From positions 449,009-513,008 of the forward strand of contig CAVPJZ010000001.1 of the NCBI GenBank assembly GCA_963705555.1: DNA of 64,000 bases, in the 5' to 3' direction. Each line of letters begins with the position of its first letter. Within the stretch, counting starts at the first letter, position 1. Of the stretch, positions 2,942 to 43,324 are shown piece after piece. A program made the position numbers and the translations under genes. The notes below the pieces were generated by a model. The model saw only the letters and a list, made by a program, of their open reading frames with translations. It made no database searches and had not been told where the DNA came from. The DNA comes from an uncultured delta proteobacterium (GTDB lineage Bacteria; Desulfobacterota; Syntrophia; Syntrophales; Smithellaceae).

Positions 2942-2950
2942 CGTGCATTA

Positions 2951-3225
2951 GTGAGATTCAAATTTTAATGAGACTCAAATTTCACAAACGTAGTGAGTCC
3001 CAGATTTTAGAAGCGGAGCGCACTGAAATCTGTTGGACGAACTATCCCGCAAAGCGGTGGCAGTGCAGCGAAATTTGCAAGCCGAATTATCCCACATGCG
3101 AAGTCATGTGGGACTGTATAGCAAGTCGAATCAATGAAACTGAGATATTGCAAGCGCAGCACAGCAATATATCTTAGCTGAATTGATCCCACCAGAGGTG
3201 GGGCTATCCCGCGAACTAGGGATAG
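2951..3225 (+). repeat. mosaic hairpin-module array A (about 8 modules)
   Basis: Type I modules at 2992-3048 and 3133-3190: flank (A/G)TGA(A/G)..C, stem, loop AAGCGGAGCGCA or CAAGCGCAGCACAG, stem, then ..GAA.TATCCC. ATCCC-type hairpins at 3090-3113, 3186-3200 and 3205-3224. Confidence 0.85.
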
Positions 3226-3268
3226 AATGTCCGTGAATTAGGATAATATGTAATAAGGAGTTTTCGTT

Positions 3269-7426: not shown

Positions 7427-7481
7427 ATTTTGTTCTCCTTTCTTTATTATTCAAATATAAGGCGCAATTTACCGAAATATC

Positions 7482-7645
7482 AATGAGGCTCAAATTAAAG
7501 GCTCATCTCGGAGAGCCTTTAAGTCAAGCCGAATTGATCAAGTCCAGGCTTCAATAAGCTCAAAGCTTATTTCGGATCATACCTAGGTTTATAGTTGAAT
7601 TTGTTAGCTGATTGTCAGATTGCATCGGGATGAGGCTCAAATATT
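7482..7645 (+). repeat. degenerate hairpin-module array G
   Basis: AATGAGGCTC + TTAAAGGCTC / GAGAGCCTTTAA hairpin + GTCAAGCCGAATTGATC. Followed by partial modules (GTTAGCTGATT, GATGAGGCTCAAATATT). Confidence 0.6.
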
Positions 7646-14241: not shown

Positions 14242-14940
14242 ATGAAAAATAATTGTTTGTTTGTCCTAAAGAAAATTGCAGTGCTTGTTTTGATAGCTTT
14301 TGGTTTGGGCATATCAGGTTGTGCTACTGCCGCCAGCCTTTACAGCGTCGATATGCGGTATACGGCGGCCGAGGCCATTATCCCGGCATATTTAAAAGCC
14401 GATGAAAAAACACGTGACGCTATTATTAATGTAGCGGAATTCATCGACACACGCCGGTTGGATGATAAAAAAATAATCGGTCGAGTGATAGAGAGAGACG
14501 GCACGAAACCTCTTGTATTCCCCAAGTATGTTATACCGACCAAAGCCGTCGCTAACGGCATTAAAGAATATTTGAAAAAAGCCGGTTATAAAGTTGCCGA
14601 TAAGCTTGTGCGATGGGATTTAAAAGAAGAAACCATGCCGAAGGGGTCCGGCAAAGTTCTTATAGGCGGGAACATTGAAGAGCTCGAAGTATCTTGCGAG
14701 CGCGGTGTTTTTTCTAATTCTTATAAAATCAGTTTGAAGTTGACCATTATTTTTGCGGATTTGGCCAAAGGCAAGATATTATATAAAAGCAAAGTGGAAA
14801 GCGCATCTTCCAGAGATGATATTTCCTTTTCTGAAGAGTGGCTCGGAAAACAGGTCAGTACTGCTCTGGGCGATGCCATTGAAAAAGTATTTCAAGAAAA
14901 GGCTGTAGCGGAAAAGATAAAAGAAGCCATCACCCAATAA
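14242..14940 (+). CDS. lipoprotein of unknown function
   Basis: Signal peptide with lipobox LGISGC. AAGGAG SD 7 nt upstream of the ATG at 14242. Confidence 0.7.
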   Translation: MKNNCLFVLKKIAVLVLIAFGLGISGCATAASLYSVDMRYTAAEAIIPAYLKADEKTRDAIINVAEFIDTRRLDDKKIIGRVIERDGTKPLVFPKYVIPTKAVANGIKEYLKKAGYKVADKLVRWDLKEETMPKGSGKVLIGGNIEELEVSCERGVFSNSYKISLKLTIIFADLAKGKILYKSKVESASSRDDISFSEEWLGKQVSTALGDAIEKVFQEKAVAEKIKEAITQ

Positions 14941-14949
14941 ATTTACCCC

Positions 14950-15349
14950 GTCAATGACACTCGCTAAGAACGAGCGTAGCGAAGTAGTGAGTCCCAAATT
15001 TAAGAAACTTAGAGCACTGAAATTTGCAGGACGAACTATCCCAGGAACGAAGAGACGCGGGATTTGAAGCGTAAGTGGAATTAATGAGACTCATGTTTTA
15101 GAAACGCAGTGAACTAAAACATGTAAGCCGAATTAATCCCGCCCAAGCGGAGGGTATCGCAGATACCCGTGGTCAATGAAACTCAGATATTTCAAGCGCA
15201 GCACAGAAATATCTGTTAGTTGTAATGAGACTAAAACTTCAAAAGCAAAGCGCATTGAAGTTTTTTAGTCGAATTATCCAATAGCCGATGGCTATTGGAA
15301 ATTATCCCACCACAGGTGGGGCTGATCCCGATAGCGAAGCGTATCGGGG
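14950..15349 (+). repeat. mosaic hairpin-module array B (about 10 modules)
   Basis: Leader GTCAATGACACTCGCT. Type I modules at 14987-15042, 15083-15140, 15175-15223 and 15224-15280. ATCC(C) hairpins follow: CCAATAGCC/GGCTATTGG, CCCACC/GGTGGG, CCCGATA/TATCGGG. Confidence 0.88.
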
Positions 15350-15372
15350 TTGACACCTTTAAGTAACGCAAC

Positions 15373-16623: not shown

Positions 16624-16705
16624 TCTCTAATGGGAATTAGAATGTTGGATCATATCATCATCGGCGATGGCGAGTATTATAGCTTTGTCAATGACACTCG
16701 CTGAT
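16624..16705 (+). pseudogene. radC: internally deleted radC remnant (5-prime ISNG codons joined to the last about 22 codons)
   Basis: Translates to [26 protein letters not shown]. It is about 85% identical at nt level to 17832-17890 of the full radC. Confidence 0.75.
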
Positions 16706-16958
16706 AATGAGACCCAAGCTTCAGGAACAAAGTGCATAACCTAAAGGTCACTGCCGCTGAAACTTGCGGGACGTAATGAGACTAAAACTTCAAAAGCAAA
16801 GCGCATTGAAGTTTTTTAGCCGAATGAATGAAACTCAAATACTACAAACGAAGTGTTGTAGTATTTGTTAGCTGAATTCATCCTGCAGCCAAAGGCTGTC
16901 AGGGCTATCCAATAGCTAAAGGTTATTGGAAACTATCCCGGGCGCGATGCGCCGTGGG
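16687..16958 (+). repeat. mosaic hairpin-module array D (about 7 modules)
   Basis: Same leader GTCAATGACACTCGCT. Type I modules at 16706-16774, 16775-16826 (1 mismatch to 15222-15275) and 16827-16884 (11-bp stem). ATCC hairpins follow. Confidence 0.88.
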
Positions 16959-26500: not shown

Positions 26501-26687
26501 GTGGTGGAAAGTAGGGAATTGAGTCCGCAATCCCGATTTGCTACGCTTACGGGATCAATTCGACTAAAAAACTTTAATGCGTTTTGTGGGATAGCTCGCT
26601 GTGTTCATTATCCCACGTCGCTTTGCTTCTGGGATAATTCGTCCAACAAATTTCAGTGCGCTGCGCTTCTGAAATTTGGGACTCATT
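26501..26687 (-). repeat. mosaic hairpin-module array C (inverted orientation)
   Basis: The reverse complement reads AATGAGTCC-CAAATTTCAG-AAGCGCAGCGCA-CTGAAATTTG-TTGGACGAATTATCCC. ATCCC hairpins and a half module (TTAAAGTTTTTTAGTCGAATTGATCCC) follow. Confidence 0.85.
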
Positions 26688-26701
26688 AAAAGGAGGTTAC
26701 C

Positions 26702-27367
26702 ATGGAATTAGCTGCTGCAATCAAGGGAAGAAGGAGTATTCGCAAATTCAAATCGCAGGATGTACCTAAAAGTGTAATTACGGAAATTCTGGAAGAGGCG
26801 CGCTGGTCGCCATCGTGGGGAAATACCCAGCCCTGGGATTTGTATGTATTAAAGGGTAAAACACTGGCTAAATTTAAAGAAATGAATCTCAAGCAAACGC
26901 TGGCGGGCGCAGCTATTGCCCCCGATGTGCCGATGCTCGAAAAATGGCCGGACGCCATGAAAGTCAGATATGGAGAGCTGGGCAAAATCGTTTTGTCCTC
27001 GCAGGGTATAAAAAGAGAGGATAAGGACGCACGCGATAAGTATTATCAGAATATGGTTTCCATGTTTGATACCCCTTGTCTGATTCTGGCCTGTATTTCC
27101 CGGGATAATCTTGTCGAATACCAGATGCTGGATATCGGCCTTATCGCGCAAACGATTTGTCTCGCTGCTCACGGTAAAGGCCTGGGCACGTGTCTCCTGG
27201 CCGCCGCCGCGCGTTACTCCGCCGAAATCAGAAAAATAGTGGCAATTCCCGCCGATAAAAAAATTGTTGTGGGCATTGCTCTGGGTTATCCCGATCCGTC
27301 ATTTCCTCTCAACAATTTCGAGCGGGAGAGAGCAAAGCTGGATGAATTTGTCCATTGGATGGAATAA
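26702..27367 (+). CDS. nitroreductase-family protein
   Basis: 221 aa with N-terminus AIKGRRSIRKFKSQDVP...ARWSPSWGNTQPW. AGGAGG SD. Confidence 0.88.
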   Translation: MELAAAIKGRRSIRKFKSQDVPKSVITEILEEARWSPSWGNTQPWDLYVLKGKTLAKFKEMNLKQTLAGAAIAPDVPMLEKWPDAMKVRYGELGKIVLSSQGIKREDKDARDKYYQNMVSMFDTPCLILACISRDNLVEYQMLDIGLIAQTICLAAHGKGLGTCLLAAAARYSAEIRKIVAIPADKKIVVGIALGYPDPSFPLNNFERERAKLDEFVHWME

Positions 27368-31495: not shown

Positions 31496-31620
31496 GGTTC
31501 CCCCCTGAGAGATGAAATTGTCTCCTGATTTGTATAGTAGCATAACATCATTTTTTGAGAAACGGAAATTTAAAGATGACGGCGTGATTTTTGCCGCGGC
31601 GCTGCGATTCTTTTTTCATT

Positions 31621-31817
31621 GTGAAACTCCAATTTCCATAACGAAGTGTATAACCTAAAGGTCACACGTGGAAATTGGTAAGTTGAACAATCCCGCACAG
31701 CGGAGGGTAGTGAAACTCAAATTTTAAGAACGCAGTGAATTAAAAATTGTTAGCTGAACTATCCCGTATAAGCAGGGATATGATACCACGCAGCTTGCTT
31801 TGGGGTTCATACCCGGG
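31621..31817 (+). repeat. mosaic hairpin-module array E
   Basis: Type I modules at 31621-31693 (9-bp stem, loop carrying ATAACCTAAAGGTCAC) and 31709-31764. ATCCC hairpins. The terminal segment TATGATACCACGCAG...TTTGGGGTTCATACCCG is shared with array F. Confidence 0.85.
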
Positions 31818-43022: not shown

Positions 43023-43079
43023 TAAGGCGAAAAATGGTCGGTGTTTTCATCAAGTCGAGCACTACTTTGAAGTTTATTC

Positions 43080-43324
43080 GTGAAACTCCAATTCTAATGA
43101 AACTCAGATATTACAAACGCAGTGCAGCAATATCTGTAAGTTGAATTATCCCACGTGCGAAGCTAAGTGGGATATTGTAATGAGACGCAAGCTAGAAACA
43201 GCGTATAACCTAAAGGTCACACGTCGGAATTGGCAAGTTGAACAATCCCGTATAAGCAGGGGTATGATACATCGCAGTAAGCTTTGGAATCGGTTTCCAA
43301 AGCTTAATTTGGGGTTCATACCCG
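43080..43324 (+). repeat. mosaic hairpin-module array F
   Basis: Type I module at 43097-43152. ATCCCAC...GTGGGAT hairpin. A chimeric module carries ATAACCTAAAGGTCAC. An 11-bp hairpin AAGCTTTGGAA/TTCCAAAGCTT. Terminal TTTGGGGTTCATACCCG overlaps the glpC stop. Confidence 0.85.

What the first reader, a model, noticed from the sequence alone, without database searches (positions are those of the whole stretch)
2992..3048. Compensatory substitutions and G-T (G-U) pairs within hairpin sub-families
One sub-family has three copies with the flanks GTGAGTCC / TTGGACGAAYTATCCC.
- 2992-3048 has the stem CAGATTTTAG / CTGAAATCTG.
- 14987-15042 and 26628-26687 (minus strand) have CAAATTT.AG / CTGAAATTTG.
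- The A-to-G change in the 5-prime arm is matched by a T-to-C change in the 3-prime arm.

A second sub-family (flank AATGAAACTC) shows AGATATTG/CAATAT..CT at 3143-3174 versus AGATATTT/AAATATCT at 15185-15214. This is G-C replaced by T-A.

T-G juxtapositions (3008/3025, and in CCAATAGC/GTTATTGG at 16909-16929) would be tolerated as G-U pairs in RNA. This argues for selection on structure, possibly at the RNA level.
Basis: seen in the sequence. Interest (0 to 1): 0.6.

Follow-up and report, generated by a model that had tools for sequence, protein, structure and literature searches.

The report
Mobile hairpin repeat module, not RNA
The hairpin is one copy of a 59-base, three-stem hairpin module that litters the DNA between genes in Smithella-like bacteria and some Bacteroidota. 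Its stems are kept by matched changes, but nothing shows that this happens at the RNA level.

Summary
The hairpin at 2992-3048 is one copy of a 59-nt module. From the outside in it has stem P1, a tandem G·A/A·G step, stem P2, a 2-nt bulge, a 10-bp stem P3, and a loop capped by a C-GNA-G mini-hairpin.

- **Copy number:** this 2.4-Mb genome holds at least 140 copies. Related Smithellaceae hold hundreds, several Bacteroidota hold tens, and some viral contigs carry it.
- **Covariation:** 20 of 21 pairs show changes on both sides. 92.6% of cells are paired against 75.6% in shuffles.
- **No RNA signal:** G·T juxtapositions are about as common as A·C. Orientation relative to flanking genes is 38:38. 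Changes private to one copy mostly break pairs. The conserved loop is the kind that is exceptionally stable as DNA.
- **Turnover:** arrays are present, absent or differently filled at matching sites in close relatives.

I read it as a building block of gene-less, mobile or recombining hairpin repeats of the REP/BIME/PATE kind. The enzyme that moves them is unknown: Y1, Y2, IS110 and TnpB genes do not track the copies. Earlier follow-ups of this scan reached the same reading on other genomes.

The parts
2949..3237 (+). Whole mosaic array after the terminator hairpin of the upstream gene. It is absent at the matching site in three relatives.
   Evidence: G010, G003 and G007 have 12-40 nt here. 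G012 and G006 hold different modules.
2990..3048 (+). It lies nested inside the loop of another A-unit.
   Evidence: CM R1 77.7 bits, E 3e-17. Sequence.
2966..2989 (+). 5' half of the outer A-unit (TAATGAGACTCAAATTTCACAAAC), interrupted in its loop.
   Evidence: The same nested composite occurs in G010 at another locus.
3060..3093 (+). 3' half of the outer A-unit (GCAGTGCAGCGAAATTTGCAAGCCGAATTATCCC).
   Evidence: (partial HMM hit 26-59).
3091..3112 (+). B-type mini-hairpin CCCACATG-CGAAGT-CATGTGGG.
3131..3189 (+). A-unit 'k' (AATGAAACT sub-family, G-C at 20:35).
   Evidence: CM 70.2 bits.
3188..3225 (+). Two B-type mini-hairpins (CCCACCAGAGGTGGGG; TATCCCGCGAACTAGGGATAG).
7480..7540 (+). Variant A-unit: same P1, tandem-GA step and P2, but a different inner hairpin.
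   Evidence: CM 24.2 bits, E 0.0015. Sequence.
14984..15042 (+). A-unit 'b' (GTCC/GGAC sub-family).
   Evidence: CM 67.4 bits.
15081..15139 (+). A-unit.
   Evidence: CM 79.4 bits.
15173..15225 (+). A-unit 'e' (T-A at 20:35), abutting the next unit.
   Evidence: CM 43.5 bits for 15180-15221..
15222..15280 (+). A-unit.
   Evidence: CM 78.9 bits.
16704..16775 (+). Long A-unit with the ~20-nt insert TAACCTAAAGGTCAC... in its loop.
   Evidence: (D18).
16773..16883 (+). Two abutting A-units.
   Evidence: CM 56.4 and 74.2 bits.
16909..16929 (+). B-type mini-hairpin CCAATAGC/GTTATTGG with one G·T.
   Evidence: Relative at 15283-15303.
26631..26689 (-). A-unit 'c'. Its 5' end lies 4 nt from the Shine-Dalgarno sequence of the gene that starts at 26702.
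   Evidence: CM 84 bits..
31619..31690 (+). Long A-unit with a loop insert.
   Evidence: CM 38.2 bits..
31707..31765 (+). A-unit.
   Evidence: CM 72.8 bits.
43075..43290 (+). Composite: an interrupted long A-unit with an inserted A-unit (43094-43152) and B hairpin, followed by a 3' C-module. G010 has only the C-module here.

Best explanation
The hairpin is one copy of a 59-nt 'A-unit'. Its parts are P1 (positions 2-5 with 52-55), a tandem sheared-type G6A7/G50A51 step, P2 (8-11 with 46-49), a 2-nt bulge (44-45), P3 (12-21 with 34-43), and a 12-nt loop holding an R-C-(G/A)NA-G-Y mini-hairpin.

A-units are modules of gene-less mosaic repeats. The other modules are short ATCCC...GGGAT hairpins and a 3' hairpin module. 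These repeats insert, nest inside one another and are lost or replaced between genes.

**Shown:** the structure and its covariation; the high copy number; presence/absence and replacement at matching sites in relatives; a recent burst of a 175-nt composite in a Bacteroidales genome; and presence in two phyla and in viral contigs.

**Inferred:**
- Stems covary between sub-families because only copies that fold as a single strand are propagated. I think that strand is most likely DNA, exposed during replication or transfer.
- The invariant unpaired features (T-GA...GA-A and C-GNA-G) are the contact points of an unidentified protein.
- Resident copies then decay without local selection.
For: - **Copies in this genome:** at least 140 covariance-model hits and 111 full-length copies.
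- **Covariation:**
- **Strand-specific features:** tandem GA in 303/311 and a GNA/ANA cap in 280/311. The top strand is more stable in 76% of copies under both RNA and DNA parameters.
- **Private changes:** in tight sub-families, 44 break a pair and 3 are compensated.
- **Turnover at matching sites:** site 2949-3237 is empty in G010, G003 and G007 and differently filled in G012 and G006. The nested composite that contains copy 'a' lies at another locus in G010, and that locus is empty in this genome. A-units are absent at 43075-43250 in G010, and a different core sits in the same frame at 26631-26689.
- **Copy number within one genus:** from 0 to more than 130.
- **Recent burst:** at least 40 copies of a 175-nt composite at 94-99% identity in one Bacteroidales MAG.
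- **Wide host range:** at least 20 copies in the isolate Gelidibacter japonicus Bio7-1, and copies on 8 IMG/VR contigs.
- **No gene-related orientation:** 38:38.
- **DNA-type stability of GCGNAGC caps:** PMC13037366.
Against: - No enzyme was found. Y1_Tnp is absent from the assemblies of the high-copy genomes G010 (95% complete) and G012 (98% complete), as are Y2_Tnp, IS110 DEDD and TnpB.
- The Y1 genes of the Bacteroidota carriers are flanked by their own, different REPs and have no A-unit within 1.5 kb.
- No clean target duplication or terminal inverted repeat could be defined.
- Bias relative to GC skew is weak (56:35, p about 0.04-0.09), so a replication-strand preference typical of single-strand transposons is not shown.
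- Stems change about half as fast as unpaired positions within sub-families, which leaves room for some local constraint.
- RNA expression was never tested.
- Most genomes are MAGs, in which repeats and insertion sequences are often unassembled.
Confidence: 0.7

Rival explanations
1. The A-unit is a structured RNA: a small RNA, or a UTR element acting on stability, termination or translation. Under this reading the stems are kept by selection on the transcript.
For: - Strong covariation and a strand-specific fold.
- Tandem G·A steps and GNA/GNRA-like caps also occur in RNA.
- 12-15 of 111 units end 0-5 nt from the Shine-Dalgarno sequence of a divergent gene, and 7-9 overlap a stop codon. Many units must therefore be transcribed within UTRs.
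Against: - Orientation to flanking genes is 38:38. Where the unit abuts a Shine-Dalgarno sequence, the mRNA carries the bottom strand, which lacks the conserved G·A and GNA features.
- G·T is not enriched over A·C.
- Copies are gained, lost and swapped between close relatives.
- No Rfam match.
- No run of T follows the unit.
Confidence: 0.1
2. The paired changes arise without selection. Mismatches in an extruded DNA hairpin are repaired arm against arm, or copies are overwritten by gene conversion or template switching from other copies.
For: - At 26631-26689, G010 carries a core (P2-P3-loop) about one third different from this genome's, in exactly the same P1 and Shine-Dalgarno frame, while the flanks are 91% identical.
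- P1 arms assort independently of cores but still covary.
- Copy a's G14-C41 is the state of the large CAGATATT sub-family, so it could be a recombinant.
Against: - Standing mismatches are common (7.4% of cells).
- Private changes are almost never compensated in place (3 of 47), so arm-to-arm repair is inefficient at best.
- Repair alone does not explain the invariant unpaired G·A step and the C-GNA-G cap across two phyla.
Confidence: 0.08
3. The units are host-used DNA sites whose hairpin form is what the host needs. Candidates are single-strand initiation or priming signals, topoisomerase or nucleoid-protein sites, or recombination sites of the integron attC kind.
For: - GCGNAGC-type mini-hairpins occur in single-strand priming signals (PMC13037366).
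- Size (57-80 nt), structure-over-sequence conservation, a bulge and a 3' GTTGAAY box recall attC.
- BIMEs bind IHF and gyrase (PMC2817692 abstract).
Against: - Some complete or near-complete genomes of the same genus have no copies (G003 at 95% complete, G014 at 84% complete), so no essential host role.
- Units are scattered in both orientations between housekeeping genes and are not in cassette arrays.
- The 5' box RTGARAC does not fit attC's RYYYAAC.
- Only weak bias with GC skew.
Confidence: 0.07

Closest known systems
REP / BIME / REPIN elements with RAYT (Y1 HUH) transposases (PMC2817692, PMC3733652, PMC8266576)
   Same: High-copy extragenic imperfect palindromes. They are clustered into mosaic arrays. 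Sub-families differ by matched stem changes. They are thought to act as folded single-stranded DNA and are often found next to terminators.
   Different: The unit is 59 nt with three stems, a tandem G·A step and a GNA-capped loop, not a 20-40-nt palindrome. The 5' GTAG tag is present in only 5 of 88 copies. No RAYT is flanked by these units, and high-copy genomes lack Y1 genes. Units nest inside each other's loops.
PATEs, the gene-less derivatives of IS200/IS605 insertion sequences
   Same: No terminal inverted repeats and no evident target duplication. The two ends carry different hairpins. Polarity is fixed relative to a T-rich 5' flank.
   Different: No parent insertion sequence with these ends was found. 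TnpA and TnpB were not found in G010 or G012.
BOX elements of Streptococcus pneumoniae (boxA-boxB(n)-boxC)
   Same: Modular composites of short hairpin-forming units with variable module number. They lie between genes and no transposase is known for them.
   Different: No sequence likeness. BOX is confined to one genus, whereas this family spans Desulfobacterota and Bacteroidota.
Integron attC sites
   Same: Recognised by fold rather than sequence. Size is 57-141 nt, with a bulge and a 3' GTTRRRY-like box (GTTGAAY in part of the copies).
   Different: The units are not arranged as ORF-attC cassettes in one orientation. The 5' box does not fit RYYYAAC. A tandem G·A step replaces the paired R box.

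Membership tests
REP/RAYT | Short (20-40 bp) palindrome ending in GTAG (or CGTC) at one end (PMC3733652) | tested here: not met
   The unit is 59 nt. Its 5' consensus is TTAATGA, and GTAGTGA occurs in 5 of 88 distinct copies.
REP/RAYT | A cognate RAYT (Y1_Tnp) gene in the genome, typically flanked by the REPs | tested here: not met
   - G010 and G012 have more than 125 copies each and no Y1_Tnp hit.
- The only Y1 gene of this genome is an IS605 TnpA+TnpB in a high-GC stretch.
- The Bacteroidota Y1 genes carry other REPs.
REP/BIME | High-copy, extragenic, clustered in mosaic arrays | tested here: met
   At least 140 copies. 8 of 127 lie inside called genes. There are 93 arrays of 1-4 units.
IS200/IS605-derived PATE | No terminal inverted repeats, different subterminal hairpins at the two ends | tested here: met
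   The 175-nt composite of G190 starts AATCAATGAG... and ends ...CCGCGGGGTAGTT.
IS200/IS605-derived PATE | Insertion 3' of a fixed tetra- or pentanucleotide without target duplication | tested here: inconclusive
   The 5' flank is T-rich (TTTA, TATT, TTAAT are commonest). No clean pair of empty and filled sites allowed the junction to be read to the base.
IS200/IS605-derived PATE | A parent insertion sequence with the same ends that encodes TnpA | tested here: not met
Classical MITE (DDE transposon derivative) | Terminal inverted repeats and a fixed-length target-site duplication | tested here: not met
   The ends of the 175-nt composite are unrelated, and no consistent direct repeat flanks 7 near-identical copies.
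Integron attC | R''/R' boxes RYYYAAC...GTTRRRY and arrays of cassettes in one orientation | tested here: not met
   The 5' box is RTGARAC. Units are scattered, 85 on the plus strand and 42 on the minus strand of the contigs, between housekeeping genes.
Curated structured RNA family (Rfam 15) | Match at the gathering score | tested here: not met
   No match in the window or in four Bacteroidota loci. Only chance-level miRNA hits appear at E up to 10.
Functional cis-acting RNA of host transcripts | Consistent orientation relative to the transcribed gene | tested here: not met
   38 co-oriented against 38 opposed in tandem gene contexts.
Functional RNA | Evidence of transcription of the folded strand | not testable with these tools

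The most novel reading that the evidence does not exclude
The A-unit may be the substrate of a so-far unknown way of moving DNA. Under this reading a protein reads a folded single strand through the invariant tandem G·A step and the DNA-type C-GNA-G mini-hairpin. It then inserts or exchanges the inner hairpin (P2-P3-loop) as a cassette between the two GA junctions, including into the loops of other units. This system would have spread between Desulfobacterota and Bacteroidota, perhaps on phages, without any Y1, Y2, IS110 or TnpB enzyme.
Probability: 0.15. Interest if true: 0.75.

Novelty: new variant of a known kind. Interest (0 to 1): 0.45.

Why it matters
The family is apparently undescribed: no Rfam family matches, and one full-text search (Smithella, intergenic, repeat, hairpin) returned no paper. 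It has very clear structural covariation, a DNA-type mini-hairpin cap, nesting of units in each other's loops, and copies in two distant phyla.

For annotators it explains hundreds of 'structured' intergenic tracts in Smithellaceae MAGs that could be mistaken for riboswitches or small RNAs.

For mobile-element biology it offers a tractable case for finding the enzyme behind hairpin repeats that have no RAYT, because Gelidibacter japonicus Bio7-1 is a cultured carrier.

It also shows that compensatory changes plus a few G·T pairs are not enough to infer an RNA.

Tried and rejected
- **RAYT/REP link.** Rejected after Y1_Tnp searches in this genome, in 40 relatives and in five Bacteroidota carriers.
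- **Other transposases.** IS91 Y2, IS110 DEDD and TnpB do not track copy number.
- **Genes enclosed by inverted arrays.** They are ordinary housekeeping genes by my own reading of their sequences (thioredoxin, D-Ala-D-Ala ligase, ClpB and others), not by a Pfam scan.
- **An autonomous long version.** A search for a 5' A-unit and a 3' C-module 0.3-4 kb apart in this genome found nothing convincing.
- **Replication-strand bias.** Only 56:35 with GC skew. Skew here also follows gene direction, so this is inconclusive.
- **Exact junctions and target duplication.** Relatives of the Bacteroidales MAG were too distant to give empty sites. The Smithella empty sites have diverged flanks.
- **Rfam.** Nothing at the gathering score; at E up to 10 only chance-level miRNA and traJ hits.
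- **K-turn reading of the G·A step.** Rejected because the bulge lies 4 bp away from the G·A pairs.

Full report
**What is at the coordinates**

They lie at 2990-3048, 14984-15042 and 26631-26689 (minus strand). The second pair, 3131-3189 and 15173-15225, is also as described. In copy a, A14-T41 has become G14-C41, and C19-G36 has become T·G. Copy b has A·G at 19:36. The hairpin at 16909-16929 is a different, smaller module, with one G·T where its relative at 15283-15303 has G-C.

**The real unit**

The unit is 59 nt long and is built as follows:

- P1, positions 2-5 with 52-55 (for example TTAAT/ATTAA, TCAAT/ATTGA, GTAGT/ACTAT, TTTGT/ACAAT)
- an almost invariant tandem G6A7/G50A51 step
- P2, positions 8-11 with 46-49 (GACT/AGTC, GTCC/GGAC, GACC/GGTC, AACT/AGTT)
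- a 2-nt bulge at 44-45
- P3, positions 12-21 with 34-43
- a 12-nt loop, AAR-C-(G/A)NA-G-Y-GMA, in which R24 and Y30 covary

The window holds 13 covariance-model matches, plus long and split copies, in seven intergenic tracts. The 2.42-Mb, 73%-complete genome holds at least 140.

**Is it more than chance?**

On 88 distinct copies, 92.6% of cells pair. Shuffles give 75.6%, and slid partners give 24-40%. 20 of 21 pairs have changes on both sides. A set of 227 copies from other genomes, not used to define the structure, gives 93.6% against 77.0%. The structure is therefore real and conserved.

**RNA or DNA?**

Several results speak against this.

- **G·T against A·C in this genome.** There are 70 G·T cells and 62 A·C cells. 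20 of the G·T lie at the sub-family-fixed pair 1:56, and 19 of the A·C at the fixed pair 9:48. That leaves 50 against 43.
- **G·T against A·C in 311 copies from many genomes.** The same correction gives 131 against 108.
- **Changes private to one copy.** Within tight sub-families these are 9 G·T, 17 A·C, 18 other mismatches and only 3 compensated pairs. Resident copies therefore mostly decay. Compensation is a property of sub-family founders.
- **Copy a's states are inherited.** Its G14-C41 and T19·G36 are also present in a G010 copy, so they were not acquired in place.
- **The fold is strand-specific.** The G·A step is kept in 303 of 311 copies, the C-GNA-G or C-ANA-G cap in 280 of 311, and the top strand is more stable in 76%.
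- **Orientation is random relative to genes.** The folded strand is co-oriented with both neighbours in 38 tandem contexts and opposed in 38.
- **The loop favours DNA.** GCGNAGC-type caps melt at 76.5 °C as DNA, and the RNA counterpart is far less stable (PMC13037366).

None of this proves DNA. It does remove the positive case for RNA. Expression data could not be consulted.

**Behaviour at matching sites in relatives**

Relatives of the same genus were compared at 75-91% flank identity.

- **Array 2949-3237.** It is missing in G010, G003 and G007, where the terminator hairpin is followed by 12-40 nt and then the ribosome-binding site. G012 and G006 have other modules at the same point.
- **The nested composite.** The composite that contains copy a (an outer unit, the inner unit a, and part of a B hairpin) lies about 2.9 kb away on the other strand in G010. 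That site is empty in this genome.
- **43075-43250.** G010 has only the 3' C-module.
- **26631-26689.** G012 shares the copy with one loop difference. G010 has a core about one third different in exactly the same frame next to the Shine-Dalgarno sequence.

Units also nest in each other's loops (2966-3093 around 2990-3059). Some carry a ~20-nt loop insert (16704, 31619, 43175). One keeps the P1, G·A and P2 scaffold but has a foreign inner hairpin (7480-7540). Within clusters defined by the core, the two P1 arms vary together but independently of the core. I cannot explain this. It suggests exchange bounded by the G·A junctions.

**Distribution**

- 21 of 24 genomes of the family have copies, and counts within the genus run from 0 to more than 130.
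- One other family of the order has a few copies. None were found in 146 other sampled genomes of the phylum.
- An exact-pattern scan of 185,579 species genomes hit many MAGs labelled Smithella, Smithellaceae or Syntrophaceae. It also hit genuine, folded copies in Bacteroidota.
- Gelidibacter japonicus Bio7-1, a cultured isolate, has at least 20 copies. Three Bacteroidales MAGs have 25-74.
- One of those MAGs has at least 40 copies of a 175-nt composite at 94-99% identity, which is a recent burst.
- Eight IMG/VR contigs carry A+B units.

**Placement**

- The 5' flank is T-rich; TTTA, TATT and TTAAT are the commonest.
- In 7-9 units, positions 2-4 are the stop codon of the upstream gene.
- In 12-15 units the 5' end lies 0-5 nt from the Shine-Dalgarno sequence of a divergent gene. 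Copy c is one of these, and 6 of the 8 distinct viral copies are placed the same way.

The 5' end is therefore the anchored end.

**What moves it?**

This is unknown.

- Y1_Tnp does not follow copy number.
- The Y1 genes of the Bacteroidota carriers have their own REPs.
- Y2, IS110 and TnpB are absent from G010 and G012.
- Genes enclosed by arrays are housekeeping genes.

**Verdict**

Selection for a hairpin is supported. The RNA reading is not supported. The thing is a module of a modular, mobile or recombining hairpin-repeat family closest to REP/BIME and PATE elements, but it fails their defining tests.

Earlier follow-ups of this scan on other genomes reached the same general reading. I re-derived it independently here. 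The new contributions of this report are the strand-symmetry test, the orientation test, the private-change test and the observation about the DNA-type loop.

Noticed in passing
window 26631-26701; G000 units listed; viral loci L232-L237: The 5' end of the unit often lies 0-5 nt from the Shine-Dalgarno sequence of a gene on the opposite strand. This holds for 12-15 of 111 units and for 6 of 8 distinct viral-contig copies. That gene's 5' leader therefore carries the bottom strand of the hairpin right before its ribosome-binding site.
   Followed up: partly
G000 units listed (e.g. C4:228279, C1:246063, C2:733385): Positions 2-4 of the unit (TAA, TAG or TGA) serve as the stop codon of the upstream co-oriented gene in 7-9 units.
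   Followed up: partly
window 31690-31800 and 43236-43315; many G000 loci: The composite ...AAGTTGAACAATCCC-GCGAAGCGGAGGG-TATAATACCCC... contains TTGAAC, a 19-nt spacer and TATAAT, which is a near-consensus sigma-70-like promoter pointing out of the element. It may equally be just the GGGTAT/ATACCC palindrome.
   Followed up: no
window 14957-14985 and 16690-16705: A further module, TCAATGACACTCGCT(A/G)A..., with its own hairpin (CTCGCTaagaACGAGCG in the first copy), precedes A-units. It also occurs in G012 at the 2949 site.
   Followed up: no
L001 = G000:C1:5756-9109: The genome's only Y1 transposase sits with a TnpB-like ORF in a stretch whose composition, by eye from the ORF translations (no GC measurement), is far richer in G+C than the 44% genome. 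It is possibly foreign DNA or a binning or assembly chimera.
   Followed up: no
window 7480-7540: This unit has the usual P1, tandem G·A step and P2, but an unrelated inner hairpin (TTAAAGGCTC/GAGCCTTTAA) and no GNA loop.
   Followed up: partly
G012 and G010 at the site matching window 14940-15372: In place of the A-unit array, these relatives carry repeats of the TCTCTAACGGG / TTTCTAACGGGG core. Another first-stage note tied that core to radC 5' fragments.
   Followed up: no
L126 (contig labelled Rikenellaceae) against G000:C2:804460: The two A-units are nearly identical, differing at 3 positions. This is either recent transfer between phyla or a mis-binned Smithella contig (GC 0.45).
   Followed up: no
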